In this document: positions 2,585 to 51,826 of the stretch, piece after piece
Position numbering within the stretch: the first letter of the stretch is position 1
Layout: every line of letters begins with the position of its first letter
Source: an uncultured Planctomycetia bacterium
Lineage (GTDB): Bacteria; Planctomycetota; UBA8108; UBA1146
Direction of reading: 5' to 3'
Assembly: GCA_964605665.1 (NCBI GenBank)
Contig: CAZSDP010000001.1
Location: 203,166-267,165 of the forward strand
Length of the DNA stretch: 64,000 nt
Made by a program: the position numbers and the translations under genes
The notes under the pieces: model-generated
What the model saw: the letters and a program-made list of their open reading frames with translations, nothing else
Told to the model about the DNA's origin: nothing
Databases searched by the model: none

Positions 2585-2648
2585 TACTTCGGCACCGACT
2601 TCCAAATAAAAACGACCAGTTGAACTCTCAGAACCGCTCCGCTCAACT

Positions 2649-10833: not shown

Positions 10834-10894
10834 TCACTCTGACACGCTCGTCGTTCGGTTTCTGATCACCCCCGACTGGAGGAGCGGAAGCACC

Positions 10895-11923: not shown

Positions 11924-11930
11924 GGGATTA

Positions 11931-13037: not shown

Positions 13038-13041
13038 TGAG

Positions 13042-14030
<989 letters not shown>

Positions 14031-14034
<4 letters not shown>

Positions 14035-38879: not shown

Positions 38880-40301
38880 TCAACTCATCTCTGAACTCTG
38901 ATAGAGAGCCGTTGGAATGGCACAGATGCGCTTGGATTCGCCAAATATACCAACTGCAACCCCGTGAAGGACTTTCTTGTCTGTATCGTAACGACGACCA
39001 CGAATAGAGATTCTCGTCGATGATTCAGCGCTTCCATGAATCAGAACAACCGCCCTGGGGTTGGAGGTCCGACTTCCTGTCAACAACTCTAGGCGACTCC
39101 GAAGCCGAGAAATTCGCTGATCGACCCGCTGTTGCTCGGCATAAACTTCGTCTTCATCTTCATAAAAAGCGAGGCGCTTCTCTTCCGATAAGTGCCAGAC
39201 TTTCGAACGATCTTCACCCTCGGTTCCGTGCTTCGCCTTGAAGTCCTCGAAGAGTTTTCCGTGATAGAGGACCCAACGACGAATCTCGCTCTCAATTTCA
39301 TGCATTTGCTCGTTGATCCAACTCGCATGCCCAACCTCGATCGAAACTGGATGAAAGCCCGATGCGACCGCATCTGCGATTTCAGCACCGCTAATCGCCT
39401 CTACCGTTCCTCCCCGAATCACACAACCTTCAGTGGCAGCTTGCACGGTTCCGCGGGAACGACAGCGACAATCGGTCAGACCTTTGATCACGACCACGTC
39501 ATCCCCAGCGGTGATCGAAGTCCCGATTGCAGTTTGGACTTTGACCCTGCCTTCCGCCTCGATGGTCGTGCTCCCTCCCCCAACGATCTCCCCTTCGACT
39601 CGGATGTCACCCTCAGCTCGCAGTTGCACACCAACTCCGATATCGCCTTCGATGATCAGATGCCCACCAACCTCGATCGTTGTCTCCGCAGCAACTGAAC
39701 CAGAGATCTTCGCATCCCCGGGCCAGCGATAAGTCCCCGGCCCGATGCCATGGGAATGCAGGAGCGTTTTGACAATCTTGAGTTCGCTCTCATCTGCATG
39801 GAGAAATCCCGTCGCACGCGCCGTCCATACTCCATCGTCAACGCTGATGCCGCTTCCGGCCTTCAATACGGGAGATTCTTGAGTTGGAGGGGGAGGGACC
39901 GGGTGTCCAAGCACATCGACTCCCACTTGAGCCGCAGCTCCATCGGTCACCTGAAAGAGAGGATCCCCCTGCTTGACGTAGAGTGGGAGAAGCTCAACGT
40001 CGTCGTTCCCGGTTCTCGCTGGAGGGGCGAGCCTGTCTAGTCCCCCACCATGACCAGCGACCGAGGGGGTCCCTCGAGCGACAATCCAAGGGCCCGTATC
40101 CCCCGATTTCCAATCTGAAATGAGCGATTTAAGCGCTTCCTTAAGGACCCCGTGCTGAATTCCACAACCCTTGAGATACCGGTGAAGCGTATGAGCGTTT
40201 AATCCGCGGGGAGGGCGAGGTTCTAGTGGAGAAACCGCCGCTTCTAGACCATCTGCGGCGATTTGGAGGTCGAGAGCAGACCGAATTTCATCGTCCAACA
40301 A
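38880..40301 (-). CDS. DUF342 / FapA-like protein (β-helical repeat plus C-terminal coiled coil)
   Basis: Repetitive 'GxIxxxGDIxVxG' β-helix-like segment ('HLIIEGDIGVGVQLRAEGDIRVEGEIVGGG…'), then coiled-coil 'EIRRWVLYHGKLFEDFKAKH…'. The architecture is reminiscent of FapA. Confidence 0.4.
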   Translation of the reverse strand: MLDDEIRSALDLQIAADGLEAAVSPLEPRPPRGLNAHTLHRYLKGCGIQHGVLKEALKSLISDWKSGDTGPWIVARGTPSVAGHGGGLDRLAPPARTGNDDVELLPLYVKQGDPLFQVTDGAAAQVGVDVLGHPVPPPPTQESPVLKAGSGISVDDGVWTARATGFLHADESELKIVKTLLHSHGIGPGTYRWPGDAKISGSVAAETTIEVGGHLIIEGDIGVGVQLRAEGDIRVEGEIVGGGSTTIEAEGRVKVQTAIGTSITAGDDVVVIKGLTDCRCRSRGTVQAATEGCVIRGGTVEAISGAEIADAVASGFHPVSIEVGHASWINEQMHEIESEIRRWVLYHGKLFEDFKAKHGTEGEDRSKVWHLSEEKRLAFYEDEDEVYAEQQRVDQRISRLRSRLELLTGSRTSNPRAVVLIHGSAESSTRISIRGRRYDTDKKVLHGVAVGIFGESKRICAIPTALYQSSEMS

Positions 40302-40494
40302 GGCCCAACCTTCCTAACTTATTACGCAACAGCAACTTACGGACCCGCAGACCCGAAACAACGCCTCCTGGAAGCGAAATCCACCCTCAACAGCGTACAA
40401 CGCCCTTCTAGAACTCGGCAAACTTGGCCCAGCGTCCTACACCATCTCCTCTCTACAACAATCAAGATCAACGAATGGATGACCTGGAGGGCTG

Positions 40495-40516
40495 GGTGTG
40501 AAAAAATGTTCACACC
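40495..40516. promoter_or_regulatory. Perfect 8-bp-arm palindrome GGTGTGAA-N6-TTCACACC (candidate operator) in the divergent region between the DUF342 gene and the kinase/EBP gene
   Basis: Read directly. It lies ~85 nt upstream of the ATG at 40599. Confidence 0.45.
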
Positions 40517-40598: not shown

Positions 40599-43500
40599 AT
40601 GAAACAGATCCAACACGATTACCGATTTCTCAAACCCCTGGGATCGGGGGCGGAGGGAGAGGTTTGGTTAGCAGAAGATCTCCGAAGGGACCAACTTCTC
40701 GTCTCCTGGAAACGACTTTTCGACTCTTCAACAGATCGGAAAATCCCGTCCGAGTTTCGAACGTTGCAAGGGATCCAACACCCAGCACTCGCGACGGTTC
40801 TAGAGAGTGGATTACTTCCCGATGGAGCTGGTCGCTGGTTCACAAGCCCATTTTTTCCTGGTCAATCGATCGACAAATTGCCTCGTCCGATAGACCCCGC
40901 TCTCCTCGAGGGGATTATCCGACGGGCTGTCGAAGGGATTGCCGCGCTTCACCGCTCTGGTTACCGCCACGGAGACCTTAAACCGGCTCACTTGCTTTGG
41001 AATGGCCCCCGACCTCTCGATGTACAGTTGATCGACCTGGGGCATGCTGCGCTCCTCGATGATCCCTCTCCGATCAATGCGGGAACGCCCCCGTACGCAG
41101 CTCCCGAATTGTGGAGCTCTTCACCAAAGCCACGCAGAAACACAGATCTCTACGCCCTCGCGATGATTGCCCTCGAAGTACTCAGAGGAGCACCCGTTCA
41201 ACAAAGTGTTGCACTGAGTGAGTGGCGAGATTGGCACCAACATGGCAACCGCGAGAGTGCACTCTCAGGAATAACAGTGCAGATTCGTGGCGCATTTCAC
41301 GAAGTGATCCGTTCCTGTTTGCAGCCCGACCCAGACGACCGTCCGCTTGACGCGGAAGCGATCTTACAGCAACTGCAACCATTCGAACCGACGAAGGAAG
41401 ACTCAGCGGAACAACGGAGTCGTTTCGATGAACTTCCGTTGATCGGTCGGGATCATTGGTTGACCACAAAGTATCAGGAGCTCAACTCTCCCGACGGTCC
41501 AGCCGGATTCCTACTGCTTGGAGAGGCGCGATCAGGACGCACGCGCCTGGTTCGCGCACTTGCCGCTCGCGTCAAATCTCGCGGCGGAATTGCCGTCGAA
41601 GGGGCATCTTCCGATCCGATCCACCAACGCGCACTTTCCACTCTCTCTCAACAGGCCCCCTGTCGTCTCCTCTGGTTCGACAACGTCATGGAACATCACT
41701 TTGAATCGGTCATCCAGGGGTGGAAACGGGTACGTTCTCTCGCTGGCTCCTCCGAGACTCGGCTCATCGCCATCGTCGACCCCTCGGCAAGTTCCGCTGC
41801 TTTGGCTCATCTAAAGAGAAGACTTGCCGGCATCTCTGGTCCAGTAAAAAGTGAGTTCCTGGCGGGGCTCGACCGCACGAGCTTTCACGAGTTGTTTCAA
41901 TATACTCACCAAAGCAAGGGGCGATCCGCTCTCGCCCCAACTGAAATCGATGCTCTATGGAGAAGTAGCGGCGGATCTCCCGCCAGTCTTGCACCCGACC
42001 CACCTCGCCCACCCTCCTCAAGACACGCACAAAGCGTGCTCGGACCTCGCTTGGGAAGCTGGTTGGCGCACATTCCAACTTCGCTGCCTTGGCATGTGCT
42101 CAAAGAAGCCTCTGGCAATTTAGATGAAGAGCTCGAGGATCTGTTTCTTTCTTGCGGATCAGGTGGACCAACCCGAGTTGAGAGTCGAGGTGAAACTCGA
42201 GTTCTTCCTTGGCCAGCGATCTTCCCCGTTGATTCGTCGATTCGACACCTCGCTGAAACTTGGAGGGATCGTGACGCTCCCACCGGACGATGGGCAGCGC
42301 TCTACCTCGAGGCGATTTCCGGAATCGTGATCTCTTCCGAAGCTTGGAGAATTGAGGTCGAGTCAGCGCGGCTCCGCGAGGATCCAGTGTCCCTACTCTC
42401 TCTGGCTCAAATCGCCCCTCAACCCGAACTGAAACATTGGCTCGAGATCGAAGGACGAGCACTGAGCGGAGAAGCGCAGAGGGTGGTCGATGAGTTGCCC
42501 GATCACCCGAGTGAACTCAACTCAGAACAGAGCATGATTTGCTCCACGATTCTGCAAACGACGGCCGGTCCAGCGCGAGCACTTCCATACGCGCTGCATT
42601 CACTGGAACATGCAGACAAGAGCTCTGTCATGGCGAGAAAGATACACGCAGCCTGCATCGCCCATGAATCTGGGGACGGAAAACTCGTAGACTCCTTAGT
42701 TCGTGATCTCGACAATCGATCAGAATTGAGCCCCCATTCCCTTTTCGAACTCGGGTCACTGCACTTACGACGTGGCCGATTCGCCGAGGCTGAGCCTTGC
42801 TTAAGTCAAGCGTTGAAACGATCGCGAGGCGGCGTTTCACCTCCGATCGTTTTGAAGTGCATGTCAGCACTCGCAGGGCACGCTCGTCTCACTGGTGACC
42901 TGCAGACCGCCCTTCAACGGATTCAAGTCGCGCATCGATACGCATCCTTCTTGAAAGTCGAGGAGGAGAATCCGGGATTGGTGGGAAACCTCGGAGCCAT
43001 TCTTCACTCGCTCCGTCGGTCTGACGAAGCCCTCCTTGCCTATCTGCGTGCCAATCAACTGGTGAAACGACGACCCGACCCAAATCTTGAAGTCCATCTG
43101 CAACTTGGGCTCGGTACAGTTCTGCGAGATCGTGGATCTCTGTTTGAAGCTTATCGCGCTCTGCGACGCTCCGTTCGCCTGGCCCGCACCACCAAAATGG
43201 GGCCGATTCTTGCCGCTGCGCTCGGCAACACCGGCGACCTAGAGCTCCTCATGGGAAACCCTCGAGCTTCGGCAATCCACCGATCTGAACTCCTTGAGTT
43301 GGCGGAAAAGGTCGGTGATCCAGCGCTTCTCCGACAAGCGCGCATCGCACTCGCGGCGGCCTCTTTGCACCTCGGCCAATGGAATCGATCGAATACCCTT
43401 TTGGAAGCTGCTGAAGAAGCCAAAGGAGTCGGAGGCTTACGACTTGATTCTTGGAATCTCGTCGTTCGCGCAGAATGGCTAGACCTTCATGGCGACAGAC

Positions 43501-45473
43501 GAGCTGCACTCACTGCGGCTGCAGCCGCTCTGCGCACTGCGTTTAGGAGCGGGCGTTCCTACATGGCAGCGACATCACTCCGCTTGATCTCTCGACAGGT
43601 CGCTAAACTCGGCGATGTTCCCCGTGCAATTCGACTTCTATCACGGGGACTTGAACTCGCTCGTCAAGACCCATGTCCCCCTCTCGCACGAATCCCTCTG
43701 GAACTCGAGAAACTTCACTGGACCGAGTCGCTCAACGGCGAAAGACGAACCGACCTCCGACTGACCCTCGCTAGGAACGCCAGGCAACACGGCTTACTGG
43801 AAGAATTCCTCGTCGCAACAGCACCGATATCAGACCTGCTTCCAGACGACCTAGCCGAAGCTCAAGGTGGTTTACGCGGCCGCCTCCTTCGCCGCTACGG
43901 TCATGCTGGGATCGACGCATTAGAAAAACGAAGAGGTTTCACGATCGCAGCAAGAGTAGCGACCACCCGCATGGAACTCCAAGTGAGCAGCTCCACGATC
44001 GAGGACTCCCCTGAAGAACCCTCACTTGAATTGCCCGAACGGCTTCAGAATCTATCGACCAATCTAGGGGCCGATGGCGCCTTGGCGTTGTCACGTCCGA
44101 TCAGAGCCTGGAGGCATGTCTGTAAGGTCGGCAATATCCAGTCGCCGGAAGCCTCCGATCTGCCGACGACCACAACTCTCTGGCCTGGCTCGACGTGGTC
44201 GCTGTGGATCCCGATACACTCCTCAACCCCTTGCGCCCTATGGTTGCAGGGAAGTGGTCAAGCTCCCGATATCGAATCGCTCGATCTGCGCGGTTGGAAT
44301 GAGACGATCACAGTTCATAGGTTGAAAAGTAATGAAGAGCGGCTCAAGAAGCTCGTCAAGCAACTACGCAGCGATCTCCAAGATTCTCGAGAAGAGAAGA
44401 TATCAGAGCGAGCCCGCCTAGAAACCCAACTGCTGACTCAACGGCTCGAGGTGACTCAAGATGGAGAGAGCCCCTCGGAGAACTCCATTTGGATCTCGGA
44501 ATCCCCCGCGATGAAAGCTCTTGAAGGACTCCTACCTCAGTGGGCGAAGAGTCAGCTACCGATTCTACTTTGGGGAGAAAGTGGAGTCGGTAAAAGCGCT
44601 CTTCTCTCGCGACTCTCACGCCTCTCTGGAGAATCTCCGATCACTGAAAACTGCGCAGCATTGCCCGAGCCTCTTCTCGAAGCTGAACTCTTCGGATACG
44701 TACCTGGAGCCTTTACCGGGGCAGAACAGGAACACAGCGGTCTCTTCGAGCGCGCTGCTGGAAACTCGCTGATTCTCGATCACCTCGATGAACTTCCCCT
44801 CAACCTACAGGCAAAGCTGTTGCGGGTCTTAGACTCAGGTAAGTTCCGACCTCTTGGCGCAGAAGAGGATCGGCAAGTTCAGTTTCGATTGATCGCCACC
44901 CTCAGGGATGATCCGCAAACCCTGATCGAACAGAATCGTCTGCGCCTCGATCTGTACTATCGACTTCAAGGTATCGAAGGGCATGTCCCTCCTCTTCGCC
45001 GCCGCAGGGAAGAGATCGGCCCTCTTTTGGAAGCGTATCTGAGTGAGGCTGCTCGAATTCAGGTCCGGCCACAGCCAACGATCCACCCACAGGCACTTTC
45101 TATCCTTGAGGCTGCAGACTGGCCTGGGAATGTCAGAGAATTGGTGAATGCCACACAACGCTGGCTGATCCAATCGGTCGATACCCTTCGCCCTGAGGAC
45201 CTAGACCGGGAATTCGTGCAGACTCCTGCAGTGGGTGATCCGTCTGGAAACACCGCATTCACAGAGAGAAAGGACGCAGCATCAACGACCGTCGCCACCT
45301 GGTCGGGAGAGGACTGGCGAACAGAGACGGAGAGATTCCACCGCGGTCTTCTTCGGGCCGCTCTCGATCGCTTCGCTGGGAATCAAACTCAGACCGCTCA
45401 AGCTCTCGGAATCAGTAGAAGACACCTGCAAAATCTGCTCAACAAACTTGATCTCAGGGAGCAAGAGGAATGA
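40599..45473 (+). CDS. Giant fusion protein: Ser/Thr protein kinase – degenerate STAND/AAA_16 NTPase – TPR array – σ54-interaction AAA+ domain – Fis-type HTH
   Basis: Kinase: Gly loop 'GSGAEGEV', 'VSWK', catalytic loop 'YRHGDLKPAHLLW', 'DLG', 'PPYAAPE'. STAND-like: 'LLGEARSGRT'. C-terminal enhancer-binding module: Walker A 'GESGVGKS', 'GAFTGA', 'LDLYYRL…PPLRRRREEI', HTH 'QTAQALGISRRHLQNLLNKL'. Confidence 0.8.
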   Translation: MKQIQHDYRFLKPLGSGAEGEVWLAEDLRRDQLLVSWKRLFDSSTDRKIPSEFRTLQGIQHPALATVLESGLLPDGAGRWFTSPFFPGQSIDKLPRPIDPALLEGIIRRAVEGIAALHRSGYRHGDLKPAHLLWNGPRPLDVQLIDLGHAALLDDPSPINAGTPPYAAPELWSSSPKPRRNTDLYALAMIALEVLRGAPVQQSVALSEWRDWHQHGNRESALSGITVQIRGAFHEVIRSCLQPDPDDRPLDAEAILQQLQPFEPTKEDSAEQRSRFDELPLIGRDHWLTTKYQELNSPDGPAGFLLLGEARSGRTRLVRALAARVKSRGGIAVEGASSDPIHQRALSTLSQQAPCRLLWFDNVMEHHFESVIQGWKRVRSLAGSSETRLIAIVDPSASSAALAHLKRRLAGISGPVKSEFLAGLDRTSFHELFQYTHQSKGRSALAPTEIDALWRSSGGSPASLAPDPPRPPSSRHAQSVLGPRLGSWLAHIPTSLPWHVLKEASGNLDEELEDLFLSCGSGGPTRVESRGETRVLPWPAIFPVDSSIRHLAETWRDRDAPTGRWAALYLEAISGIVISSEAWRIEVESARLREDPVSLLSLAQIAPQPELKHWLEIEGRALSGEAQRVVDELPDHPSELNSEQSMICSTILQTTAGPARALPYALHSLEHADKSSVMARKIHAACIAHESGDGKLVDSLVRDLDNRSELSPHSLFELGSLHLRRGRFAEAEPCLSQALKRSRGGVSPPIVLKCMSALAGHARLTGDLQTALQRIQVAHRYASFLKVEEENPGLVGNLGAILHSLRRSDEALLAYLRANQLVKRRPDPNLEVHLQLGLGTVLRDRGSLFEAYRALRRSVRLARTTKMGPILAAALGNTGDLELLMGNPRASAIHRSELLELAEKVGDPALLRQARIALAAASLHLGQWNRSNTLLEAAEEAKGVGGLRLDSWNLVVRAEWLDLHGDRRAALTAAAAALRTAFRSGRSYMAATSLRLISRQVAKLGDVPRAIRLLSRGLELARQDPCPPLARIPLELEKLHWTESLNGERRTDLRLTLARNARQHGLLEEFLVATAPISDLLPDDLAEAQGGLRGRLLRRYGHAGIDALEKRRGFTIAARVATTRMELQVSSSTIEDSPEEPSLELPERLQNLSTNLGADGALALSRPIRAWRHVCKVGNIQSPEASDLPTTTTLWPGSTWSLWIPIHSSTPCALWLQGSGQAPDIESLDLRGWNETITVHRLKSNEERLKKLVKQLRSDLQDSREEKISERARLETQLLTQRLEVTQDGESPSENSIWISESPAMKALEGLLPQWAKSQLPILLWGESGVGKSALLSRLSRLSGESPITENCAALPEPLLEAELFGYVPGAFTGAEQEHSGLFERAAGNSLILDHLDELPLNLQAKLLRVLDSGKFRPLGAEEDRQVQFRLIATLRDDPQTLIEQNRLRLDLYYRLQGIEGHVPPLRRRREEIGPLLEAYLSEAARIQVRPQPTIHPQALSILEAADWPGNVRELVNATQRWLIQSVDTLRPEDLDREFVQTPAVGDPSGNTAFTERKDAASTTVATWSGEDWRTETERFHRGLLRAALDRFAGNQTQTAQALGISRRHLQNLLNKLDLREQEE

Positions 45474-46200
45474 GTTGCAGATCTTACCGGGAACTTTCGT
45501 TCACACTTCGCCGTCGAAAACGTTGCCTCCACTTGACATATCCCTCGGCAACGCGCCGTAACCCGCCCAACTAAATCGCCACAAACCACCAAATAAACAG
45601 CACTTACAACACCTTCACGATGTCTCTTCGAGGATTGGAACGGCGGGTGCTTTGCTTCACTCGGCTGTAAGAGACCTGTGAGGAGGACAGGGGTGGCCGC
45701 TGGAATCTGGGCTTACTTCGTCGACACTCGCTATGGTGTCGCGAAGGAAGCTCGGGGAGGACTCCGGCGCTGCCCCCTCCTTTTTGCCTTCGATTCCTTA
45801 AATAGATAAACAACCCGACTTGGAGCAGCGGCTTTCGCTCCTTCATTCACCACCTGTCAATGAGTCCCTTCTTGACCGCCGCTACTTGCCTAGATACCCT
45901 CGAACTGTAGCCCTGTAACGATTCAGGGCGCATCATGGGTTCAAAAGAGAGAATCTGCCCGCTGGGACTCCTGAGGTGTGAAGCCTGTGAAATCGGGAGT
46001 TCGTTGACTTCACCGAATCGTGACGGTCTTAACTGGGTGAAGCGAGGCCGATGAGGTATCCAGCGGGGCAGTCCGCTCGTCTTTTCAACTCGATTGGACT
46101 TGAACTCGATGTGACGTGGAGGAGCGCTCTCGGATCACGCAAGAGATCCCCTGTGACCTCCACTTGAGATTGACGTACCTCGATGTGGGAGAGGAATACT

Positions 46201-47427
46201 ATGGCTCAGCCACTCGATTGCCAAAGTCAACCCACTCCAAAATCTCCACGACGCTGGTACCCAAAGAGCTTTGCCCCGCTCGCCGCACTTCTGATTCTTC
46301 TCTCAGCCACCGCGAAGATCGAAGCAAATCACTTTGTTCGTGGTGACGTGAATTTTGATGGATTTGTCACCATCGCTGATGCTTCTCGATTGATCAGAGC
46401 AACCATCCTCGGGGACACCACCATTCAGTTTGCTTGCTCAGATAGTGCGGATGTCGATGACAACGGGATTGTCGAGTTTCTTGATGCGGTTCAGCTGATC
46501 ACATTTCTTTTTGGCGCCGACGGAGCAGGAGCACTTCCACATCCTTATCCTCAACCGGGGGAGGACCAAACCACGGATAGCTTGCCAAATTGCACGGGGG
46601 TCCATACGCCCTGCGTCGGCTCGAATTGTCCAAATGGGTCAGAGATCCCCCACATCTTCTTCTTGAGCCAAGAATCGGATAACCCCCTCGAACTGATGTT
46701 GGGCGCTGGCGGGCCAACCACAGCGATACCGATTCGGATGACCTCGATCGACCCGGTGGAGGGATTCACTCTCAGCATGATCTTTGATCCCCAGCAGATC
46801 GCCTCGATAGATATCGACTTTGAGGGGGGGGTCGCAGCGGAATACAACGCGGATCTCCGAATCTCCCATGTCAGCTCCGCGCATCCTGGCCATGTCTATG
46901 CCTACGTCGTCATGGAAATGTTCCCCCCTTTCACCGAGGAGGCGATCCCCGCCGGATTCGAACTTCTTTTGGGCCACCTGCTCGTCGAAGTTCAAGAGTC
47001 TGTCCCTGTTGGCGCTACTGTTGAAATCGGATTTGAGACTCTCCCACCCGTCGGTCAAGAACCACCGATGCGAAACGAGGTTGTTCAAGGAGGAGGATTC
47101 GGCATTCGCTACCCGATCACCCACACCAGATCATTCTTGGTCGAGCACCCTCATAACCTCTTCATTCGCGGTGACGTTAATCGGGATGGCTACGTCAACA
47201 TTGGAGATGCGATCCCACTACTACAGTTCTTGTTCCTCAACCTTCAGGATGCTCCTCTCTGCTTTGACGCTTGCGATGTCAATGACTCAGGTTCGATCGA
47301 CTTGGGAGACTCCATCACGCTGCTGATGACCCTCTTCCAGCCCCAGCTTGGAATCCAACCTGCTGCCCCATTCCCATATCCATCAGTCGACCCGACCACC
47401 GATTCACTACCCTGCGAGAATTTCTAG
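46201..47427 (+). CDS. Secreted protein with two dockerin-type Ca-binding repeat pairs flanking a β-rich middle domain
   Basis: Signal-like 'LAALLILLSATAKIEA'. Dockerin repeats 'GDVNFDGFVTIAD…DVDDNGIVEFLD' and 'GDVNRDGYVNIGD…DVNDSGSIDLGD'. Each is followed by a 'PFPYP…DPTTDSLP(N)C' tail. The ORF track start at 46183 is an alternative. Confidence 0.6.
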   Translation: MAQPLDCQSQPTPKSPRRWYPKSFAPLAALLILLSATAKIEANHFVRGDVNFDGFVTIADASRLIRATILGDTTIQFACSDSADVDDNGIVEFLDAVQLITFLFGADGAGALPHPYPQPGEDQTTDSLPNCTGVHTPCVGSNCPNGSEIPHIFFLSQESDNPLELMLGAGGPTTAIPIRMTSIDPVEGFTLSMIFDPQQIASIDIDFEGGVAAEYNADLRISHVSSAHPGHVYAYVVMEMFPPFTEEAIPAGFELLLGHLLVEVQESVPVGATVEIGFETLPPVGQEPPMRNEVVQGGGFGIRYPITHTRSFLVEHPHNLFIRGDVNRDGYVNIGDAIPLLQFLFLNLQDAPLCFDACDVNDSGSIDLGDSITLLMTLFQPQLGIQPAAPFPYPSVDPTTDSLPCENF

Positions 47428-47870: not shown

Positions 47871-47907
47871 AAAAAAAAAAGAGGCGCAATCGGGGAAATT
47901 GCGCCCC
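47871..47907 (-). terminator. Rho-independent terminator on the minus strand (8-bp GC-rich stem plus T10)
   Basis: Minus strand reads gggcgcaat-ttccccg-attgcgcc-tc-tttttttttt. Confidence 0.65.
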
Positions 47908-48122
47908 CTCGGAAAGAAATGAAGCAAGCAGAGCGTGCTCTACCGAGCCTTGCTCTGTGCAGTCGCGAGAGCGAGAGCCACCGCTCCGGCGACAATCTGC
48001 CCAGTCACCACTTTAGATAGGCAACTGAGCGTTTCCCCCCGAAGGGGAAAAGGTCAGAAAGGAAGAGGCGCCTAGCCAAGGGCTGGCCCCATACTCCTCC
48101 TCTCCTGTCCCTAAAGAGCCCA
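47871..48122 (-). ncRNA. Candidate ~250-nt small RNA (σ54-type promoter to intrinsic terminator). No ORF ≥60 aa; a 5-codon mini-ORF sits behind a strong SD.
   Basis: Region is ORF-free and lower in GC. Promoter motif upstream, terminator downstream. The internal 'ggaggaggagtATGgggccagcccttggcTAG' encodes only MGPALG. No tmRNA, RNase P or SRP motifs recognised. Confidence 0.2.
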
Positions 48123-48131
48123 CCACATACT

Positions 48132-48149
48132 AAGCACGCGAGGTGCCAA
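48132..48149 (-). promoter_or_regulatory. σ54-type −24/−12 promoter-like element (minus strand: tTGGCACctcgcgTGCTt)
   Basis: GG and GC dinucleotides are separated by exactly 10 nt. TGGCAC is exact; the −12 region reads GTGCT against consensus TTGCW. Two GC palindromes (GGGGGACCCCC at ~48191–48201; GGAGGACCTCC at ~48344–48354) lie upstream in the minus-strand sense and could be activator sites. Confidence 0.3.
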
Positions 48150-48329: not shown

Positions 48330-48626
48330 CTATAACCGGTCTCGGAGGACCTCCAGGAGGGCGAGTCTTTGTCCGGCCTCAACTCGCGCTCCCTCGCCAA
48401 TCCAGTGCTCCAGAACTGTGCCATCATATGGAGACGAGATCACCACAGAGCCGCTAGAAGCAAGGACAACGGCGAGAGGCTCCCCAGATCGGGCCTGCTC
48501 CCCTTCGCCGACGAGCCACTCCAAAAGCACCCACTCCCTGCGCTCGAGGTCATCGGGTACTTTGACAAATTGTTGGTCTTTGGTGGCCCCCATCGGTACT
48601 TCTCCTCTTGCTGAGGACATCCTCAC
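48330..48626 (-). CDS. Small lipoyl/biotinyl-domain-like protein lacking the modifiable lysine
   Basis: 'VKVPDDLERREWVLLEWLVGEGEQARSGEPLAVVLASSGSVVISSPYDGTVLEHWIGEGARVEAGQRLALLE' aligns by eye to a lipoyl-domain hybrid fold. The 'ETDKA' position reads 'ASSGS'. Confidence 0.45.
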   Translation of the reverse strand: MRMSSARGEVPMGATKDQQFVKVPDDLERREWVLLEWLVGEGEQARSGEPLAVVLASSGSVVISSPYDGTVLEHWIGEGARVEAGQRLALLEVLRDRL

Positions 48627-48674: not shown

Positions 48675-49061
48675 TCAGGGCGCACTCGACTCAAGGCGCT
48701 TCTTGCACTCGATACAGTGGGTAGCAAAGGGAATCGCCTCCAAGCGCGCATCACCAATCGGACCTTCACACTCTTCGCAGGTGGTATATGTTCCATCGTC
48801 GATGCGGTGGATCGCTCGCTGGATTTGCTCCAAAGTTGCCCCGCTAGTCCGAAATTGTTCAAAAACAACGGCATCGGCACTGGTATCGCCAGCGAGGTCC
48901 TCAAGATCCGCGATGTGATGACGATCTTCTTGTGCACTCAGGGAGTCGAGCCCTGTCTCGACGTCTTCACTCAAGAGCCGAAGCTGATCAACGAGGCGTT
49001 CTCTGACCTTTTGCAGGTGATCTTCCATCTTGCAGTCTCCCGATAAGGGGCAGTCTCCCAC
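48675..49061 (-). CDS. DksA/TraR-family C4 zinc-finger protein
   Basis: N-terminal coiled coil plus 'CEECEGPIGDARLEAIPFATHCIECK' (CxxC-N17-CxxC). Confidence 0.75.
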   Translation of the reverse strand: MGDCPLSGDCKMEDHLQKVRERLVDQLRLLSEDVETGLDSLSAQEDRHHIADLEDLAGDTSADAVVFEQFRTSGATLEQIQRAIHRIDDGTYTTCEECEGPIGDARLEAIPFATHCIECKKRLESSAP

Positions 49062-49331: not shown

Positions 49332-50693
49332 TTACGGACAGACTGTCGAGGTCAAACAACCAACGCCATCCGCATCCCCACTCGGATCGGGTCCGCAATC
49401 GGGGAAGGGCGCCGCAGGCTCGGGGCCCATCGTGAACAAGTAATTCAAAAGCGTAATCGGATCGGACAGATCCACCCCGCCGCTATCATTGACATCGGCA
49501 GTGTCCAAACATGCGGGCTCAGGCCCCATGGTGAACAGGTAATTTAAGAGGAAGATGGGATCGGACAGATCGATCGTCAAAGATCCGTTGACGTCACCTC
49601 GTACAAAGACTCCTCCGGTGACCCCCGATTCAATTTCAAAAGAGCCGTCGATCACGATCGGTAGAACGCTTGACTCTCCAATACTGATGGCGATCGCCAC
49701 TGGCGGTGCAGGAGCGGGAGGAGAGAGATCGGAAGTGAACGACAAAGGAGTCAAACCGACTGTCGCTGTGGCCGAAACGTCATAGGACGTGACGATAATC
49801 TCGTGCTCAACTCCGACCGGCAAAACGCTGACGGAGCCGCCAGCCATCGGAGACATGATTGCTCCAACCGTAATACCAGTCCCGCCGCTCGGAGCGAGAT
49901 CAGCAAAGAAGAATCCAGCTCCCGCGCCTCCATTGAGCGCTTGCACAGCGGCACCCTGATCCACAGATGTCGCCGTCAGTGAAGAACCATCGTGCAAAAC
50001 GCCCAGACTAAAGCCGTGAACGTCGAGCGAGTTCGTCATCAGTAACGGTACGCTCGCAACTTCCCCTTGGGGCACCGCCGCAATCGGGGCAAATGAAAGC
50101 TCAAATGGAACCACGTCGATATCGATGATGGCGTCTTCTATCGTTGGGAAGAGGCTCGACCCCGAAAGCGGGCCCGCCCCGGGAACGACAACAGTCTGGG
50201 GTGCGGGCTGTCCCGGAATACCAGCATTGTCGCAATAGCTAATTGTCGCGGTGGTTCCGTTTGGGCCGACCAAGGCGTAATCGATATTGACGACCTCATA
50301 GTCCAAGCCTGGGGGCAACTGCGCACAAGATACGAAACAAATGATCACACCTTGGCTCACCCCTCCGGCGTCAGTGTCATCTCCGCCGTAGAAGTTGATC
50401 TCATTGAAATCAACCGGGCTTCCATTCTTGGCGACTTCGCAAGTCGCGCCGGTCGTCGCGCTGATCGGCTGTACCAGGTTGAAGTCATGACAGACTCCGA
50501 GTGACCACCCACCCAGCGGGTCAGCCCCGTCGAGAACATCGAGGAGCGCAACCAGGCTGATTTCCTCACCAGAGGAACCGCTCAATCCCTGGGGAAACCT
50601 CAAGGTGTAGTTTTCACCTTGGGCCAACGCCTGCGAGGGTAAAAGGAGGGAAAGGCAGATGAGCAGTAGTGAAGCTCCGATAATGCGACACAT
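49332..50693 (-). CDS. Secreted β-rich protein with a C-terminal dockerin-type repeat pair (paralogue of 46201..47427)
   Basis: Signal peptide 'MCRIIGASLLLICLSLLLPSQALAQ'. Internal duplicated 'GxSLGVxHD' domains. C-terminal 'RGDVNGSLTIDLSDPIFLLNYLF…DVNDSGGVDLSDPITLLNYLF' then 'PAAPFPDCGPDP'. Confidence 0.6.
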   Translation of the reverse strand: MCRIIGASLLLICLSLLLPSQALAQGENYTLRFPQGLSGSSGEEISLVALLDVLDGADPLGGWSLGVCHDFNLVQPISATTGATCEVAKNGSPVDFNEINFYGGDDTDAGGVSQGVIICFVSCAQLPPGLDYEVVNIDYALVGPNGTTATISYCDNAGIPGQPAPQTVVVPGAGPLSGSSLFPTIEDAIIDIDVVPFELSFAPIAAVPQGEVASVPLLMTNSLDVHGFSLGVLHDGSSLTATSVDQGAAVQALNGGAGAGFFFADLAPSGGTGITVGAIMSPMAGGSVSVLPVGVEHEIIVTSYDVSATATVGLTPLSFTSDLSPPAPAPPVAIAISIGESSVLPIVIDGSFEIESGVTGGVFVRGDVNGSLTIDLSDPIFLLNYLFTMGPEPACLDTADVNDSGGVDLSDPITLLNYLFTMGPEPAAPFPDCGPDPSGDADGVGCLTSTVCP

Positions 50694-50842
50694 TCCAATT
50701 CCTCGTTTCTCTTCAGCTGTAGAGGAGGATCGAGTCGATCTCTCCAGCCCCTCAGCTCTCAGATGCTTGAACTCTCCAGAATTAGAGGTCCTCAAGTGAT
50801 TTCAAACTCCGAAATTGGGTCCGAGCGTGACCCAAGCGGCCA

Positions 50843-51080: not shown

Positions 51081-51096
51081 AGGCCCCTCCCTTGCC
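51081..51096 (+). promoter_or_regulatory. Weak σ54-like −24/−12 element (aGGCCCctcccTTGCc) ~45 nt upstream of the 51140 gene
   Basis: GG-N10-GC spacing is correct and TTGC is exact. The −24 region matches GGC only. Confidence 0.2.
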
Positions 51097-51139: not shown

Positions 51140-51826
51140 ATGAACTCGGAAGCCAACCAAAGCTCAGACAATCCTGGAGACCTCTCGACCCTTCAAAAGG
51201 TGAGCCGCGTTGAACCGGTCGGCGAGCTGAAGGAGAAGGGAATCTCGAGGGTTCAGCTGATCAGCCGCAGCCAATTTGAGACGGTCATCAGAGATGCGGT
51301 TGCGAGAGAGATTCTCAATATTCTCGACCAGGTCGAGCTCTCAGCTGAGGAACAAGAAGTCCTTACAGAGCGAGCAATCGCAAGACTCTCTGGAGAAGTT
51401 CCACAGATAGAAGCCAAACCATCAGAGTCGAACAGTTCCAACCCCTCAAGTGAAGAAGTGACTCCTTCCCCTTCGACAACTTCTGACTTCGACCCAACGG
51501 CGTTCAAGCAGAAGATCATCGAAGAAGTAGGCGGCTTAGTTTCTCAGAACTGGAGAGAAGAACTAAAGTCCGCTCAAGTCTCTCAATCAAACCATATCGG
51601 TCGACTCGAAGACCGCATCGATTCTCTTATGAATGCGCTCGACCAAATTGAAAAACTGATGGAGAAGTCCGATTCCACGCCTGCTGACGAGACTCACTCA
51701 ACTCAATCAAATGGCACGAGCAACGGAACTCTAGGTGGAATGAAAAATGAGCTCCTTGAGCAGCTCTTCGATGCGAACTTAGTACTCCGAGAATTGGAGG
51801 CTGGCGAAGACCTCGACGGAGAATAA
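51140..51826 (+). CDS. Acidic Ser/Glu-rich hypothetical protein (candidate partner of the downstream actin homologue)
   Basis: 228 aa. Low-complexity acidic 'SESNSSNPSSEEVTPSPSTTSDFDP' and a coiled-coil-like C-terminal half. SD 'gggagga' upstream. Confidence 0.45.
   Translation: MNSEANQSSDNPGDLSTLQKVSRVEPVGELKEKGISRVQLISRSQFETVIRDAVAREILNILDQVELSAEEQEVLTERAIARLSGEVPQIEAKPSESNSSNPSSEEVTPSPSTTSDFDPTAFKQKIIEEVGGLVSQNWREELKSAQVSQSNHIGRLEDRIDSLMNALDQIEKLMEKSDSTPADETHSTQSNGTSNGTLGGMKNELLEQLFDANLVLRELEAGEDLDGE

What the first reader, a model, noticed from the sequence alone, without database searches (positions are those of the whole stretch)
40599..45473. Single-polypeptide Ser/Thr kinase → STAND → TPR → σ54 enhancer-binding protein (1624 aa)
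**Architecture and integrity.**
- The N-terminal Hanks-type kinase domain has VAIK-like 'VSWK', catalytic-loop 'HGDLKPAH', 'DLG' and 'APE'. It is therefore a non-RD kinase with His at the Mg-Asn position.
- It is fused, through a degenerate P-loop NTPase ('GEARSGRT', K→R) and a >400-aa TPR array, to a complete σ54 activator module.
- That module carries Walker A 'GESGVGKS', an intact GAFTGA loop, arginine-finger/sensor II 'YRL…PPLRRRREEI' and a Fis-type HTH.
- In the σ54 AAA+ domain, Walker B reads 'LILDHLDE'. The canonical catalytic Glu of hhhhDE is His, although a DE pair follows two residues later.

**Why it matters.** PknK/AfsR/MalT-like kinases normally end in LuxR or SARP outputs, and σ54 EBPs normally take REC/GAF/PAS/FHA inputs. 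A direct kinase–EBP fusion would be a one-component eukaryotic-like kinase input to σ54 transcription.

**Genomic context.** An operator-like palindrome lies upstream. Within 3–6 kb downstream are dockerin proteins, a candidate σ54-promoter sRNA and a σ54-like motif before an actin-like pair.
Basis: partly seen in the sequence, partly recalled or inferred. Interest (0 to 1): 0.8.

Follow-up and report, generated by a model that had tools for sequence, protein, structure and literature searches.

The report
Kinase-fused sigma-54 activator with partner small RNA
One 1624-residue protein really does join a eukaryote-like protein kinase to a sigma-54 transcription activator; the fusion itself is already common in sequence databases, but this rare Planctomycetota branch has lost the activator's usual catalytic glutamate and sits next to a conserved sigma-54-type promoter for a small RNA, so its wiring can be tested directly.

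Summary
Window 40599-45473 (+) is one uninterrupted 1624-aa ORF: Hanks kinase, degenerate STAND P-loop, TPR, sigma-54 AAA+, Fis-type HTH. Every quoted motif is present, and about 16 full-length orthologues rule out a two-gene artefact.

The novelty claim does not hold. More than 100 database clusters carry Pkinase + Sigma54_activat + HTH_8, mostly Myxococcota and mostly with a GAF domain.

What is distinctive:
- This is a small clade labelled Planctomycetota.
- The kinase catalytic-loop Asn is always His.
- The AAA+ Walker B Glu is always His, Gln or Arg.
- Walker A reads GKS/T instead of GKE.
- The GAF has shrunk to an ~85-aa GAF-like fold.
- All domains are under purifying selection.

Synteny is conserved down to 32% identity. 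A dyad, GTGGGAAC-N4-GTTCCCAC, lies at the stop codon. About 137 bp downstream is a -24/-12 element, followed by a ~125-nt structured RNA supported by covariation. A second copy of the dyad overlaps the gene's own sigma-70-like promoter. A second sigma-54-type small RNA and a -24/-12 element before the actin-like pair are also conserved.

Best model: an autoregulated one-component activator of the adjacent small RNA, with a slow or rewired ATPase. rpoN could not be checked.

The parts
40479..40507 (+). Sigma-70-like promoter of the regulator gene: -35 ATGACC (40479-40484), 17-bp spacer, -10 AAAAAT (40502-40507) preceded by TG.
   Evidence: Block conserved in the alignment of upstream regions: TTGAC[CG], 16-17 bp, then AA[AG][AG]AT in L001, L002, L004, L005 and L006. 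Sequence read. Promoter function is inferred.
40496..40515 (.). Dyad GTGTGAAA-AAAT-GTTCACAC overlapping the -10 and start region of the gene's own promoter.
   Evidence: It is the best match in the 64-kb window to GTGNGAAC-N4-GTTCNCAC (1 mismatch); the only other match with <=2 mismatches is 45487-45506. The same dyad lies upstream of the orthologues in L001 (5880) and L004 (9950), and in weaker form in L002. It is absent in L005 and L006.
40599..45473 (+). Gene for the 1624-aa kinase-STAND-TPR-(mini-GAF)-sigma-54 AAA+-HTH regulator.
40620..41369 (+). Hanks-type Ser/Thr kinase domain (aa 8-257). Gly loop GSGAEGEV, K38, E52, HGD126LKPAH131, D146LG, T163, APE170.
   Evidence: Pkinase E 7.9e-21. 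PDB alignments. H124, G125, D126, K128, P129, H131, D146, L147, G148, G162, T163 and E170 are invariant in 9 orthologues.
41421..42038 (+). Degenerate STAND-type NTPase (aa ~275-480). 'IGRD' lead-in, P-loop GEARSGRT (Lys to Arg; the fourth Gly is also lost), Walker B-like LLWFD361N.
   Evidence: Weak AAA_16 hit at aa 281-348. Orthologues P0006, P0007, P0009 and P0010 keep GxxGxGK[ST] and hit AAA_16/NACHT/nSTAND_NTPase5. dN/dS 0.17.
42156..43850 (+). Helical/TPR region (aa ~520-1084) with MalT-like TPR hits.
   Evidence: TPR_12 E 3.5e-12, TPR_2, TPR_1. TPR_MalT E 6.3e-11 at aa 796-1023, at 42.6 bits just below its 45-bit cut-off. The C-terminal half is the best-conserved clade-specific segment. 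dN/dS 0.09.
44031..44288 (+). Truncated GAF-like sensor domain (aa ~1145-1230: one helix and a five-stranded sheet), followed by a long signalling helix (aa ~1230-1285) leading into the AAA+ domain.
44493..45230 (+). Sigma-54-type AAA+ domain and lid (aa 1299-1544). Walker A GESGVGK1332S, N1352, GAFTGA 1370-1375, Walker B LILD1394-H1395-LDEL, T1434, R1449/R1455, R1513.
   Evidence: Sigma54_activat E 2.8e-45 and AAA_lid_14 E 4.7e-14. NtrC1 alignment, E 1e-47. Invariant residues listed.
45342..45434 (+). Fis-type helix-turn-helix (aa 1582-1612).
   Evidence: HTH_8 E 1.5e-7. dN/dS 0.065, the lowest of all domains.
45487..45506 (.). Dyad CCGGGAAC-TTTC-GTTCACAC, 14 nt after the stop codon. Proposed enhancer (UAS) for promoter P1.
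   Evidence: Present at or overlapping the stop codon in all 7 distinct lineages; consensus GTGGGAAC-N4-GTTCCCAC. In most loci these are the best matches in the whole locus; L002's copy is too diverged to pass that scan's cut-off and was located by alignment. Fixed geometry: 133.5-138.5 bp from dyad centre to the -24 GG.
45533..45538 (+). Conserved TTGACA element 42-43 bp from the dyad. Role unknown; no matching -10 follows it.
   Evidence: Also present 8 nt after the stop in L013.
45636..45651 (+). P1, a sigma-54-type -24/-12 element: TGGAACGGCGGGTGCT (GG 45637-38, GC 45649-50).
   Evidence: Syntenic in the other lineages, with GG-N10-GC invariant: L001 TGGAACGGTGGGTGCT, L002 CGGCACTGCGATTGCG, L004 TGGTGAGCCCGTTGCT, L005 TGGCACGGAGAATGCT, L006 TGGAACGGCCGTTGCA, L007 TGGTACACCGGATGCT, L013 CGGCACGACTCATGCC.
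45662..45786 (+). sRNA1, a ~125-nt structured RNA. Conserved single-stranded 5' end GGCUGUA..GACCUGUGAGGAGG, a long interrupted hairpin, an internal purine-rich GGAGAGA loop, and a U-run at 45781-45785.
   Evidence: The 5' block starts 13-14 nt after the -12 GC in 7 lineages. RNAalifold finds 33 pairs, 17 of them with compensatory changes. 85.8% of cells are paired against 50-58% for slid controls, and 0/500 shuffles reach the observed values. No Rfam family matches. The ends are predicted, not mapped.
48133..48148 (-). P2, a second sigma-54-type -24/-12 element: TGGCACCTCGCGTGCT.
   Evidence: Syntenic TGGCAC-N7-TGCT on the same strand in L004 (17320), L005 (16937), L006 (17585) and L007 (6205). 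No copy of the GGAAC-N4-GTTCC dyad lies upstream.
47871..48122 (-). sRNA2, ~250 nt. Conserved 5' end GGGCUCUUUAGGGACAGGAGAGG, variable middle, near-invariant pyrimidine-rich CUUGCUUCAUUUCUUUCC, and a strong intrinsic terminator with a U10 run.
   Evidence: Alignment of 5 lineages. Sequence. Folds, with terminator stems that change by compensatory substitutions. Best Rfam match is only tfoR at 18 bits, E 0.35.
51081..51096 (+). P3, a weaker sigma-54-like element AGGCCCCTCCCTTGCC, 59 nt upstream of the 228-aa gene that precedes the MreB-like gene.
   Evidence: GGCCC-N5-[CG]TTGCC lies 61-82 nt upstream of the orthologous gene in L002, L004 and L005. L006 has GGGCACGGTCGTTGCT 167 nt upstream. These elements were not recovered as an aligned block, so this is the least secure of the three.

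Best explanation
**What it is.** The ORF is a genuine single-polypeptide, cytoplasmic 'one-component' regulator. It belongs to a large but experimentally uncharacterised family: Hanks kinase, STAND NTPase, TPR, GAF, sigma-54 AAA+ and Fis-type HTH. It represents a small divergent clade of that family, from uncultured bacteria that NCBI labels Planctomycetota.

**Proposed mechanism.**
- Inferred: the C-terminal HTH binds the dyad GTGGGAAC-N4-GTTCCCAC.
- Shown: one copy sits at the gene's own stop codon, ~137 bp upstream of a conserved -24/-12 promoter (P1).
- Inferred: from there the AAA+ ring contacts sigma-54 holoenzyme through the invariant GAFTGA loop and switches on a ~125-nt structured small RNA. 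Read-through may also reach the dockerin gene behind it.
- Shown for position, inferred for function: a second copy overlaps the -10/start region of the gene's own sigma-70-like promoter and gives negative autoregulation.
- Inferred by analogy with MalT/PknK-type STAND proteins and GAF-EBPs: the N-terminal modules decide when the AAA+ domains may assemble.

**State of the catalytic sites.**
- The kinase keeps Lys, Glu and both Asp residues and is non-RD. It is probably active, possibly Mn-preferring because Asn is replaced by His.
- The STAND P-loop in this sub-branch is fixed as Arg, so it is probably a non-hydrolysing scaffold.
- The AAA+ site lacks the Walker B Glu throughout the clade. It keeps the Walker A Lys, Walker B Asp, both Arg fingers, the sensor II Arg and the Glu-switch Asn.
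- It has also gained GKS/T in Walker A and an acidic residue at Walker-B +3.
- I therefore expect a tight-ATP-binding, slowly hydrolysing (or rewired) activator rather than a dead one. It should behave like the engineered PspF E108Q.
For: **Architecture and integrity**
-.
- Purifying selection in every domain: dN/dS is 0.08 for the kinase, 0.09 for the AAA+ domain, 0.065 for the HTH and 0.17 for the STAND region.

**Family membership and clade-specific motif changes**
- Motif table over 120 homologues.
- Clade members P0001-P0011 have HGDxKPxH and LD[HQR]; the rest have HGDxKPxN and LLDEIGEM.
- Further members found by exhaustive search keep the same pattern.

**Link to P1 and sRNA1**
- Gene order is conserved down to 32% identity.
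- The dyad, the TTGACA element, the -24/-12 element and the RNA 5' block keep near-fixed spacing in 7 lineages.
- In L005 and L007 the dyad overlaps the stop codon itself.
- The only two matches with <=2 mismatches to the dyad in 64 kb flank this gene.
- This is the only GAFTGA protein in the window or in any locus (Pfam scans).
- An eighth lineage, L013, again shows TTGACA, CGGCAC-N5-ATGC and a stable RNA with z = -5.2.

**RNA reality**
- Covariation statistics.

**Plausibility of activity without the Walker B Glu**
- PspF E108Q has <1% ATPase and 30-fold tighter ATP binding, and still activates transcription, optimally at ~0.02 mM ATP (PMC4132715).

**General EBP behaviour**
- EBPs bind dyad-symmetry UAS sites more than 50 bp upstream, and can act as both repressor and activator (PMC12754779).
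Against: - No experiment or transcriptome was available. DNA binding, the RNA ends, kinase activity and ATPase activity are all inferred.
- rpoN was not found in the window or in any fetched locus, and the rest of the genome could not be searched.
- On ordinary duplex DNA at normal ATP, PspF E108A and E108Q fail to activate. The clade also tolerates His, Gln or Arg at that position, which fits 'no catalytic role here' as well as it fits rewiring.
- Two distant members have GAFTSA or GAFTDA.
- The P1 -24/-12 element in the window is an imperfect match (TGGAAC...GTGC).
- The window as a whole shows no excess of sigma-54 consensus matches: 22 observed against 22.7 expected.
- P2 and P3 have no copy of the dyad, so at best only part of the local sigma-54 regulon is explained.
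- The autoregulatory dyad is missing in L005 and L006.
Confidence: 0.6

Rival explanations
1. The AAA+ module is catalytically dead. The protein acts mainly as a DNA-bound repressor, or as a sigma-54-holoenzyme 'holder'. It would occupy the dyads and perhaps engage sigma-54 through GAFTGA without opening the promoter, while a conventional EBP encoded elsewhere, or none, fires P1, P2 and P3.
For: - The Walker B Glu is absent in every clade member, and the Asn that follows the sensor I Thr is also replaced.
- PspF E108A and E108Q do not activate on duplex DNA at standard ATP.
- One dyad overlaps the gene's own -10 region, which is a repressor-type position.
- P2 and P3 lack the dyad, so another activator probably exists.
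Against: - The GAFTGA loop, both Arg fingers, the sensor II Arg and the Walker A Lys are invariant, and dN/dS in the AAA+ domain is 0.09. That is more constraint than a simple DNA-binding repressor needs.
- The dyad-to-promoter distance (~137 bp) and its rigid conservation are typical of an enhancer, not an operator.
- No second EBP is linked to the locus in any lineage.
Confidence: 0.2
2. The kinase domain is a pseudokinase or scaffold that binds nucleotide but does not phosphorylate. It would act only as an allosteric or oligomerisation module for the STAND/TPR arm.
For: - The catalytic-loop Asn, which ligates the metal, is replaced by His in the whole clade and in a neighbouring branch (P0088, P0107, P0111, P0115, P0119).
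- The HRD Arg is absent.
- No FHA-domain protein or phosphatase gene is linked to the locus.
Against: - The Lys/Asp/Asp triad used to define active kinases is intact: K38, D126, D146. So are the alpha-C Glu, the Gly loop, the activation-loop Thr and APE. Most of these are invariant.
- The His itself is invariant, which suggests a functional substitution rather than decay.
- dN/dS is 0.08.
- HGD (non-RD) is the norm in the whole family, which otherwise keeps the Asn.
Confidence: 0.25
3. The adjacency of P1/sRNA1 to the gene is inherited synteny without a regulatory link. The dyad would be bound by another factor, and the real targets of this regulator would lie elsewhere.
For: - The whole neighbourhood (mreBCD-pbp2-rodA through to the aminotransferase gene) is syntenic, so conservation of order alone is weak evidence.
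- No binding data exist.
Against: - Intergenic sequence is otherwise poorly conserved, whereas the dyad, the promoter and the RNA 5' block keep exact spacing.
- The dyad recurs at the regulator's own promoter.
- Known precedents place sigma-54-dependent small-RNA genes next to their EBP genes: glmY with glrR (PMC3045617) and qrr1 with luxO (PMC10162802), both found.
Confidence: 0.12
4. Assembly or annotation artefact: two adjacent genes (a PknK-like kinase and an EBP) have been joined by a sequencing error.
For: None found.
Against: - About 16 independent full-length orthologues of 1566-1710 aa come from different samples and assemblers, including JGI, ENA, Logan and NCBI.
- The 78%-identical orthologue is collinear and 1624 aa, with dS ~1 and no frame disruption.
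- More than 100 family members share the same fusion.
Confidence: 0.01

Closest known systems
Pkinase-(AAA_16)-TPR-GAF-Sigma54_activat-HTH_8 proteins of Myxococcota and other phyla. These are database entries labelled 'sigma 54-interacting transcriptional regulator' or 'PknK'. From memory, such kinase-EBP fusions were noted in the Sorangium cellulosum genome and kinome papers, but those papers were not held, so this is unverified.
   Same: - Same domain order and size (1400-1800 aa).
- Same non-RD HGD kinase, GAFTGA and Fis-type HTH.
- Recovered with E 1e-38 to 1e-63.
   Different: - The sister family keeps the kinase Asn (HGDxKPxN), the canonical Walker A GKE and Walker B LLDEIGEM, and a full Pfam-detectable GAF.
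- The window clade has His, GKS/T, LD[HQR]xD/EE and only an ~85-aa GAF-like remnant.
- As far as I could find, no member of either group has been studied experimentally.
Canonical bacterial enhancer-binding proteins: NtrC1 (1NY6), NtrC, PspF, ZraR, NifA.
   Same: - The AAA+ domain aligns over 228 residues with NtrC1 (E 1e-47).
- Walker A Lys, GAFTGA, Arg fingers, sensor II Arg, lid and Fis-type HTH are all present.
- A dyad UAS lies ~140 bp upstream of a -24/-12 promoter.
   Different: - The Walker B catalytic Glu (NtrC1 E239, PspF E108) is His, Gln or Arg.
- Walker A ends in Ser or Thr rather than Glu.
- The input is a kinase-STAND-TPR arm instead of REC, PAS, V4R or a full GAF.
- Scores are below every NCBIfam equivalog cut-off.
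PspF E108Q and NtrC1 E239A, engineered Walker B variants.
   Same: - The substitution is at the same position. 3M0E (NtrC1 E239A) is among the best PDB matches.
- PspF E108Q binds ATP 30-fold more tightly, hydrolyses at <1% of wild type, and still remodels sigma-54 holoenzyme (PMC4132715).
   Different: - Those are laboratory mutants of otherwise canonical proteins.
- Here the change is natural, clade-wide, under purifying selection, and accompanied by other active-site changes.
PknK (Mycobacterium tuberculosis) and MalT/AfsR-type STAND regulators. Domain descriptions are from memory.
   Same: - An N-terminal Hanks kinase is followed by an AAA_16-type NTPase and a MalT-like TPR region.
- JGI's automatic name for family members is 'PknK'.
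   Different: - The output module is a sigma-54 AAA+ domain plus Fis HTH rather than LuxR/SARP or none.
- The STAND P-loop Lys is Arg in this sub-branch.
EBP genes with an adjacent sigma-54-dependent small RNA: GlrR-GlmY/GlmZ (PMC3045617), LuxO-Qrr1 (PMC10162802), and Nla19/PxrR-Pxr in Myxococcus (from memory).
   Same: - The regulator gene is physically linked to a small-RNA gene driven by a -24/-12 promoter with an upstream activator site.
- A second small RNA with a partly similar 5' end lies in the same locus, reminiscent of the GlmY/GlmZ and Qrr siblings.
   Different: - Those EBPs are response regulators fed by histidine kinases. Here the input is fused into the same polypeptide and is a Ser/Thr kinase plus STAND/TPR.
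- The small RNAs match no Rfam family.
- Their targets are unknown.

Membership tests
Bacterial enhancer-binding protein (sigma-54 activator) | AAA+ domain of the Sigma54_activat type | tested here: met
   PF00158 E 2.8e-45, 154.5 bits against a cut-off of 20.2. NtrC1 alignment E 1e-47.
Bacterial enhancer-binding protein (sigma-54 activator) | GAFTGA sigma-54-contact loop | tested here: met
   GAFTGA at aa 1370-1375, invariant in 9 aligned orthologues. Two distant clade members have GAFTSA or GAFTDA.
Bacterial enhancer-binding protein (sigma-54 activator) | Walker A Lys, and Walker B Asp-Glu with a catalytic Glu | tested here: not met
   - Walker A GESGVGK1332S and Walker B Asp1394 are present.
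- The Glu position is His1395. It is His, Gln or Arg in all clade members, but Glu in the ~95 other family members in which the motif was found, apart from one with DD.
Bacterial enhancer-binding protein (sigma-54 activator) | Arg fingers and sensor II Arg | tested here: met
   R1449, R1455 (LRLDLYYRL) and R1513 (WPGNVRE) align with the NtrC1 equivalents and are invariant.
Bacterial enhancer-binding protein (sigma-54 activator) | C-terminal DNA-binding HTH and a cognate upstream activator site | tested here: inconclusive
   - HTH_8 E 1.5e-7.
- A conserved dyad lies ~137 bp upstream of a -24/-12 element.
- Binding itself could not be tested.
Bacterial enhancer-binding protein (sigma-54 activator) | Sigma-54 (rpoN) in the genome, and -24/-12 promoters | tested here: inconclusive
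- Three syntenic GG-N10-GC elements are conserved across lineages, which is indirect evidence that sigma-54 is in use.
Hanks-type (eukaryote-like) Ser/Thr protein kinase | Pkinase fold with the Lys (VAIK), Asp (HRD) and Asp (DFG) triad | tested here: met
   PF00069 E 7.9e-21, 75.1 bits against a cut-off of 31.7. K38, D126 and D146 are present and conserved.
Hanks-type (eukaryote-like) Ser/Thr protein kinase | Catalytic-loop Asn (metal ligand) and HRD Arg | tested here: not met
   - The loop reads HGDLKPAH: Arg to Gly (non-RD) and Asn to His.
- The His is invariant in the clade.
Hanks-type (eukaryote-like) Ser/Thr protein kinase | Phosphotransfer activity | not testable with these tools
   Needs an autophosphorylation assay.
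STAND NTPase (AAA_16 / MalT / PknK type) | P-loop GxxxxGK[ST] and Walker B hhhhD in a domain that matches the HMM | tested here: not met
   - In the window protein AAA_16 scores 19.9 bits against a cut-off of 32.6, and the P-loop is GEARSGRT.
- Orthologues P0007 and P0010 meet the criterion (AAA_16 43.5 bits; GPRGSGKT and GPPGSGKS).
- The domain is therefore homologous but degenerate here.
STAND NTPase (AAA_16 / MalT / PknK type) | C-terminal TPR/MalT-like sensor array | tested here: met
   TPR_12 46.8 bits (cut-off 30.1) and TPR_2 32.6 bits (cut-off 27). TPR_MalT scores 42.6 bits, just below its 45-bit cut-off.
GAF domain | Sequence-profile match | tested here: not met
   No PF01590, PF13185 or PF13492 hit. 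hhalign against the GAF region of the sister family gives probability 0.3.
GAF domain | GAF fold | tested here: inconclusive
   - The model has pLDDT 91.8.
- Foldseek gives probability 0.99, E 0.05, TM ~0.5.
- The domain is about half the size of a standard GAF.

The most novel reading that the evidence does not exclude
This would be a natural clade of sigma-54 activators that has dispensed with the Walker B catalytic glutamate. It would fire its promoter by ATP binding, or by very slow or relocated hydrolysis.

- Ring assembly would be licensed by a fused Ser/Thr kinase plus STAND/TPR/mini-GAF input.
- Its dedicated output would be a pair of previously undescribed sigma-54-dependent small RNAs.
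- Those RNAs lie in a conserved cell-envelope and cell-shape locus (elongasome genes, dockerin-type surface proteins, a second actin-like protein) of an uncultured Planctomycetota lineage.
Probability: 0.25. Interest if true: 0.8.

Novelty: new variant of a known kind. Interest (0 to 1): 0.6.

Why it matters
**A tractable test case.** Kinase-EBP fusions are abundant in sequence data, but I found no experimental study of one. How Hanks kinases reach the transcription machinery in bacteria is mostly known through indirect routes. This locus offers a defined candidate circuit: a regulator, two copies of its likely DNA site, a -24/-12 promoter, and a small-RNA product. The circuit is compact enough to rebuild in E. 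coli or in vitro.

**A question for the sigma-54 field.** The clade-wide loss of the Walker B glutamate occurs in a domain that otherwise keeps every sigma-54-activation determinant and is under purifying selection. That is a natural counterpart of the PspF E108Q mutant. It bears on whether ATP hydrolysis is strictly required for sigma-54 activation in vivo.

**New RNAs.** The two small RNAs match no Rfam family, and the lineage they come from is uncultured.

Tried and rejected
1. **Window-wide sigma-54 consensus count.** TGGCAC-N5-TTGCW with <=2 mismatches gave 22 matches against 22.7 expected. This is uninformative on its own. Only synteny across loci separated signal from noise.
2. **First -24/-12 script.** The script had an index error for the GC position, so its 'no hits' is void. 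It was redone.
3. **GAF by sequence.** Pfam and hhalign against the sister family were both negative. Only the fold comparison suggested a GAF-like domain.
4. **Genome search with the 9-sequence alignment.** A 4-sequence alignment gave only 2 loci among 185,579 species genomes.
5. **Metagenome scan with the sRNA1 5' block.** It gave 3 loci. Two duplicate L004, and one (L010) is a false positive inside a ferredoxin-like CDS.
6. **Target prediction.** I computed duplex energies for both small RNAs against the translation-initiation regions of the syntenic genes. Energies were unspecific: the pyrimidine-rich sRNA2 seed pairs with any Shine-Dalgarno sequence. No target is claimed.
7. **Literature search for the fusion.** Searches found nothing explicit in the held library. 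Perez 2008, Pereira 2011 and Bush & Dixon 2012 are not held. My recollection that Sorangium kinase-EBP fusions were reported is therefore unverified.
8. **Rfam.** No family at gathering threshold. The best relaxed match is tfoR at 18 bits, which I treat as chance.
9. **rpoN or a second EBP.** Neither was found in the window or the loci fetched by then (L001-L011) (Pfam scans).
10. **CRP-type reading of the upstream palindrome.** Rejected. TGTGA and TCACA are 8 nt apart rather than 6, and the same dyad recurs as GGAAC-N4-GTTCC at P1.
11. **TTGACA at 45533 as a sigma-70 -35 element.** Rejected, because no conserved -10 follows it in any lineage.

Full report
**1. The observation**

Window 40599-45473 (+) is one ATG-initiated ORF of 1624 codons with no internal stop. 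Pfam places the following domains:
- Pkinase at aa 8-257 (E 7.9e-21).
- TPR_12, TPR_2 and TPR_MalT between aa 714 and 1023.
- Sigma54_activat at aa 1299-1459 (E 2.8e-45).
- AAA_lid_14 at aa 1467-1544.
- HTH_8 at aa 1582-1612.

NCBIfam aligns the last ~350 residues end to end with NorR, NtrC, NifA and PspF. Every score is below its equivalog cut-off.

PDB alignments confirm the two unusual positions:
- H131 sits where kinases have the catalytic-loop Asn.
- H1395 sits where NtrC1 has the Walker B Glu, 'LFLDEIGEL' against 'LILDHLDEL'.

The central P-loop GEARSGRT lies in a region that scores only weakly for AAA_16 in this protein. In orthologues P0007 and P0010 the same region scores for AAA_16, NACHT and nSTAND_NTPase5 and reads GxxGxGK[ST]. 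'Degenerate STAND, Lys to Arg' is therefore correct by orthology.

**2. One gene, not two**

Nine relatives of 1566-1652 aa align over the full length. An exhaustive HMMER search of 1.84 billion cluster representatives used the clade-specific middle of the protein (aa 770-1290). It found only about 16 long-stretch relatives, most of them 1600-1700 aa.

The 78%-identical orthologue in L001 was called short. From its true ATG (L001 5983) it is also exactly 1624 aa. With dS ~1, dN/dS by domain is:
- Kinase 0.08.
- STAND 0.17.
- TPR 0.09.
- Mini-GAF 0.15.
- AAA+ 0.09.
- HTH 0.065.

No domain is decaying.

**3. Is the fusion new?**

No. A single homology search returned 151 proteins at E <= 1e-10. 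Nearly all of the 120 listed carry PF00069 and PF00158, and most also PF02954. Most also have GAF domains and are 1400-1800 aa. They come from Polyangiaceae, Sorangiineae, Labilithrix, Planctomycetes, Eisenbacteria and Acidobacteriota MAGs, and NCBI and JGI already give them automatic names.

I found no paper in the held library that discusses them. My recollection that the Sorangium genome and kinome papers mention such fusions could not be checked, because the papers are not held.

**4. What is special about this branch**

A motif table over 120 homologues, extended to new members, separates a small clade from the rest. The clade comprises P0001-P0011 and P0127-P0131; NCBI labels its members Planctomycetota.

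| Feature | This clade | Rest of the family |
|---|---|---|
| Kinase catalytic loop | HGDxKPxH | HGDxKPxN |
| Walker A | GKS/T (GKD in two) | GKE |
| Walker B | LxLD-[H/Q/R]-h-[D/E]-[E/D] | LLLDEIGEM |
| GAF domain | No Pfam GAF | Pfam-detectable GAF |

- A neighbouring branch (P0088, P0107, P0111, P0115, P0119) already has the Asn-to-His change but keeps the Asp-Glu pair. The kinase change is therefore the older of the two.
- Within the clade, the STAND P-loop Lys is intact in the deeper members and is Arg in the window's sub-branch.
- The following are invariant: GAFTGA, Walker A Lys, Walker B Asp, R1449, R1455, R1513 and T1434. T1434 is probably the sensor I Thr, with a one-residue shift.

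The segment between the TPR region and the AAA+ domain shows no sequence similarity to the sister family's GAF. It nevertheless folds with high confidence (pLDDT 91.8) into a helix plus a five-stranded sheet, followed by a long helix. Fold comparison gives:
- Roadblock/LC7 folds score close behind.
- Foldseek agrees at low significance.

I read this segment as a truncated GAF.

**5. Context**

Gene order is conserved from 78% down to 32% protein identity:
- mreB-mreC-mreD-pbp2-rodA.
- A variable block of bacA, GDP-sugar genes and FapA.
- The regulator.
- A ~405-aa dockerin protein.
- A small biotin-lipoyl-like gene.
- A DksA/TraR zinc-finger gene.
- A second dockerin-like protein.
- A ~230-aa protein followed by an MreB-like protein.
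- An aminotransferase.

Aligning the intergenic regions showed that the DNA just after the regulator's stop codon is the best-conserved non-coding sequence. Seven distinct lineages share these elements:
- (a) A dyad with consensus GTGGGAAC-N4-GTTCCCAC, lying between 2 nt before and 39 nt after the stop. In L005 and L007 the stop TGA is part of the dyad.
- (b) TTGACA, 42-43 bp further on.
- (c) A GG-N10-GC element, whose GG is 133.5-138.5 bp from the dyad centre. Examples are the window's TGGAACGGCGGGTGCT, L005's TGGCACGGAGAATGCT and L002's CGGCACTGCGATTGCG.
- (d) The block GCUGUA..GACCUGUGAGGAGG, 13-14 nt after the GC, which begins a ~125-nt hairpin-rich RNA ending in a U-run.

Evidence that the RNA is real:
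- RNAalifold predicts 33 pairs, 17 of them with compensatory changes.
- 85.8% of cells are paired, against 50-58% when partners are slid by 1-3 columns.
- None of 500 shuffles reaches any observed measure.
- Rfam has no match.

An eighth lineage, fetched afterwards as a test (L013), again has TTGACA just after the stop, CGGCACGACTCATGCC, and a stable RNA with z = -5.2. Its dyad is degenerate and its RNA 5' end differs.

**6. The upstream palindrome**

In the 64-kb window, the only two matches to the dyad with <=2 mismatches are 45487-45506 and 40496-40515. The same holds locus by locus.

The upstream copy overlaps a conserved TTGAC[CG]-17 bp-AA[AG][AG]AT promoter-like block. That is a repressor-type position. 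It is present in the window, L001, L002 and L004 but not in L005 or L006.

**7. Other sigma-54-type elements**

- On the minus strand, TGGCAC-N7-TGCT at 48148-48133 is syntenic in five lineages.
- It precedes a ~190-315-nt RNA with a near-invariant CUUGCUUCAUUUCUUUCC stretch and a strong terminator whose stem covaries.
- A weaker GGCCC-N5-CTTGCC lies 59-82 nt upstream of the gene pair that ends in the MreB-like gene.
- Neither element has the dyad upstream.
- At a score of >=10/12, most hits in each locus are these syntenic sites. This is why the flat window-wide count is not evidence against them.
- The regulator is the only GAFTGA protein in the window and in every locus. No RpoN-box ORF is present (Pfam scans).

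**8. Mechanism**

*Shown:*
- The architecture.
- Clade-wide motif states.
- Purifying selection.
- Conserved geometry of dyad, promoter and RNA.
- RNA covariation.

*Inferred:*
- The HTH binds the dyads.
- The protein activates P1 through sigma-54.
- The upstream dyad autoregulates.
- The N-terminal arm gates AAA+ assembly.

The missing Walker B Glu need not mean a dead activator. PspF E108Q has <1% ATPase and 30-fold tighter ATP binding. It still activates, best at ~0.02 mM ATP, and it depends on GAFTGA. It does, however, fail on duplex DNA at standard ATP (PMC4132715).

The co-occurring GKE-to-GKS/T change, and the new acidic residue at Walker-B +3, suggest a rewired site rather than a decayed one. 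This cannot be decided by sequence alone.

**9. Verdict**

- The finding is real and well described.
- Its headline novelty, the fusion as such, is not new.
- The clade's active-site changes and its tightly linked sigma-54-type small-RNA module are, as far as I could find, undescribed.
- They make the system directly testable.

Noticed in passing
window 47871-48148 (-): A second conserved sigma-54-type promoter (TGGCACCTCGCGTGCT) drives a ~250-nt RNA. The RNA has a near-invariant pyrimidine-rich stretch, CUUGCUUCAUUUCUUUCC, and a strong terminator with a U10 run. It is syntenic in L004, L005, L006 and L007 and has no Rfam family. Its 5' end (GGGCUCUUUAGGGACAGGAGAGGAGG) loosely resembles the 5' end of sRNA1 and of the L013 RNA, so the two may be siblings.
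   Followed up: partly
window 45533-45538, and the same position in L001, L002, L004, L005, L006, L007 and L013: A TTGACA hexamer is kept at a fixed 42-43 bp from the dyad and ~100 bp upstream of the -24 element. No conserved -10 follows it, so it is unlikely to be a sigma-70 promoter. It may be a site for a bending protein or for a second factor.
   Followed up: partly
window 51081-51096 (+); genes 51140-51826 and 51973-53085: A GGCCC-N5-CTTGCC element lies 59 nt upstream of a 228-aa acidic protein with no Pfam match. That gene is followed by a divergent MreB-like protein (MreB_Mbl E 1.8e-26, against 9e-140 for the canonical MreB at 29661-30776). The pair and the element are syntenic in four other loci.
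   Followed up: partly
window 46183-47427 (+) and 49332-50795 (-): Two secreted-looking proteins with dockerin/EF-hand-like GDVNxDG repeats flank the sRNA2 / DksA region. The first hits Dockerin_1 (E 1.1e-13). The second has no Pfam hit at E 1e-3 but carries the same repeats at its C-terminus. Both are conserved in every orthologous locus.
   Followed up: partly
window 48330-48626 (-) and 48675-49061 (-): A 98-aa biotin-lipoyl/HlyD-like mini-protein and a 128-aa DksA/TraR C4 zinc-finger protein lie between the two small-RNA genes. The DksA-like gene is present in all orthologous loci whose downstream region was recovered (L002, L004, L005, L006).
   Followed up: no
window 38880-40301 (-): A FapA (DUF342) protein of 473 aa is transcribed divergently from the regulator. 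It is present in most orthologous loci, including L013, but absent in L005.
   Followed up: no
L001 5983-6156: The public gene call for orthologue P0002 starts 58 codons too late. The true ATG at L001 5983 restores the Gly loop and VAIK Lys of the kinase and gives exactly 1624 aa.
   Followed up: yes
window 16038-18419 (+): A 793-aa protein carries two Aldedh stretches, apparently a fused double aldehyde dehydrogenase. It sits next to a DeoC-type aldolase and downstream of two Opp/Dpp-type ABC transporter clusters (535-6246 and 8773-15071).
   Followed up: no
window 22889-24478 (+): A Rho termination factor homologue of 529 aa has a ~160-aa N-terminal extension before the Rho RNA-binding domain.
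   Followed up: no
L010 6791-6811: The sRNA1 5' block pattern also matches by chance inside a 4Fe-4S ferredoxin-like coding sequence (C-K-T-C-E-E-V-C-P). This is a caution for pattern-only searches with this motif.
   Followed up: yes
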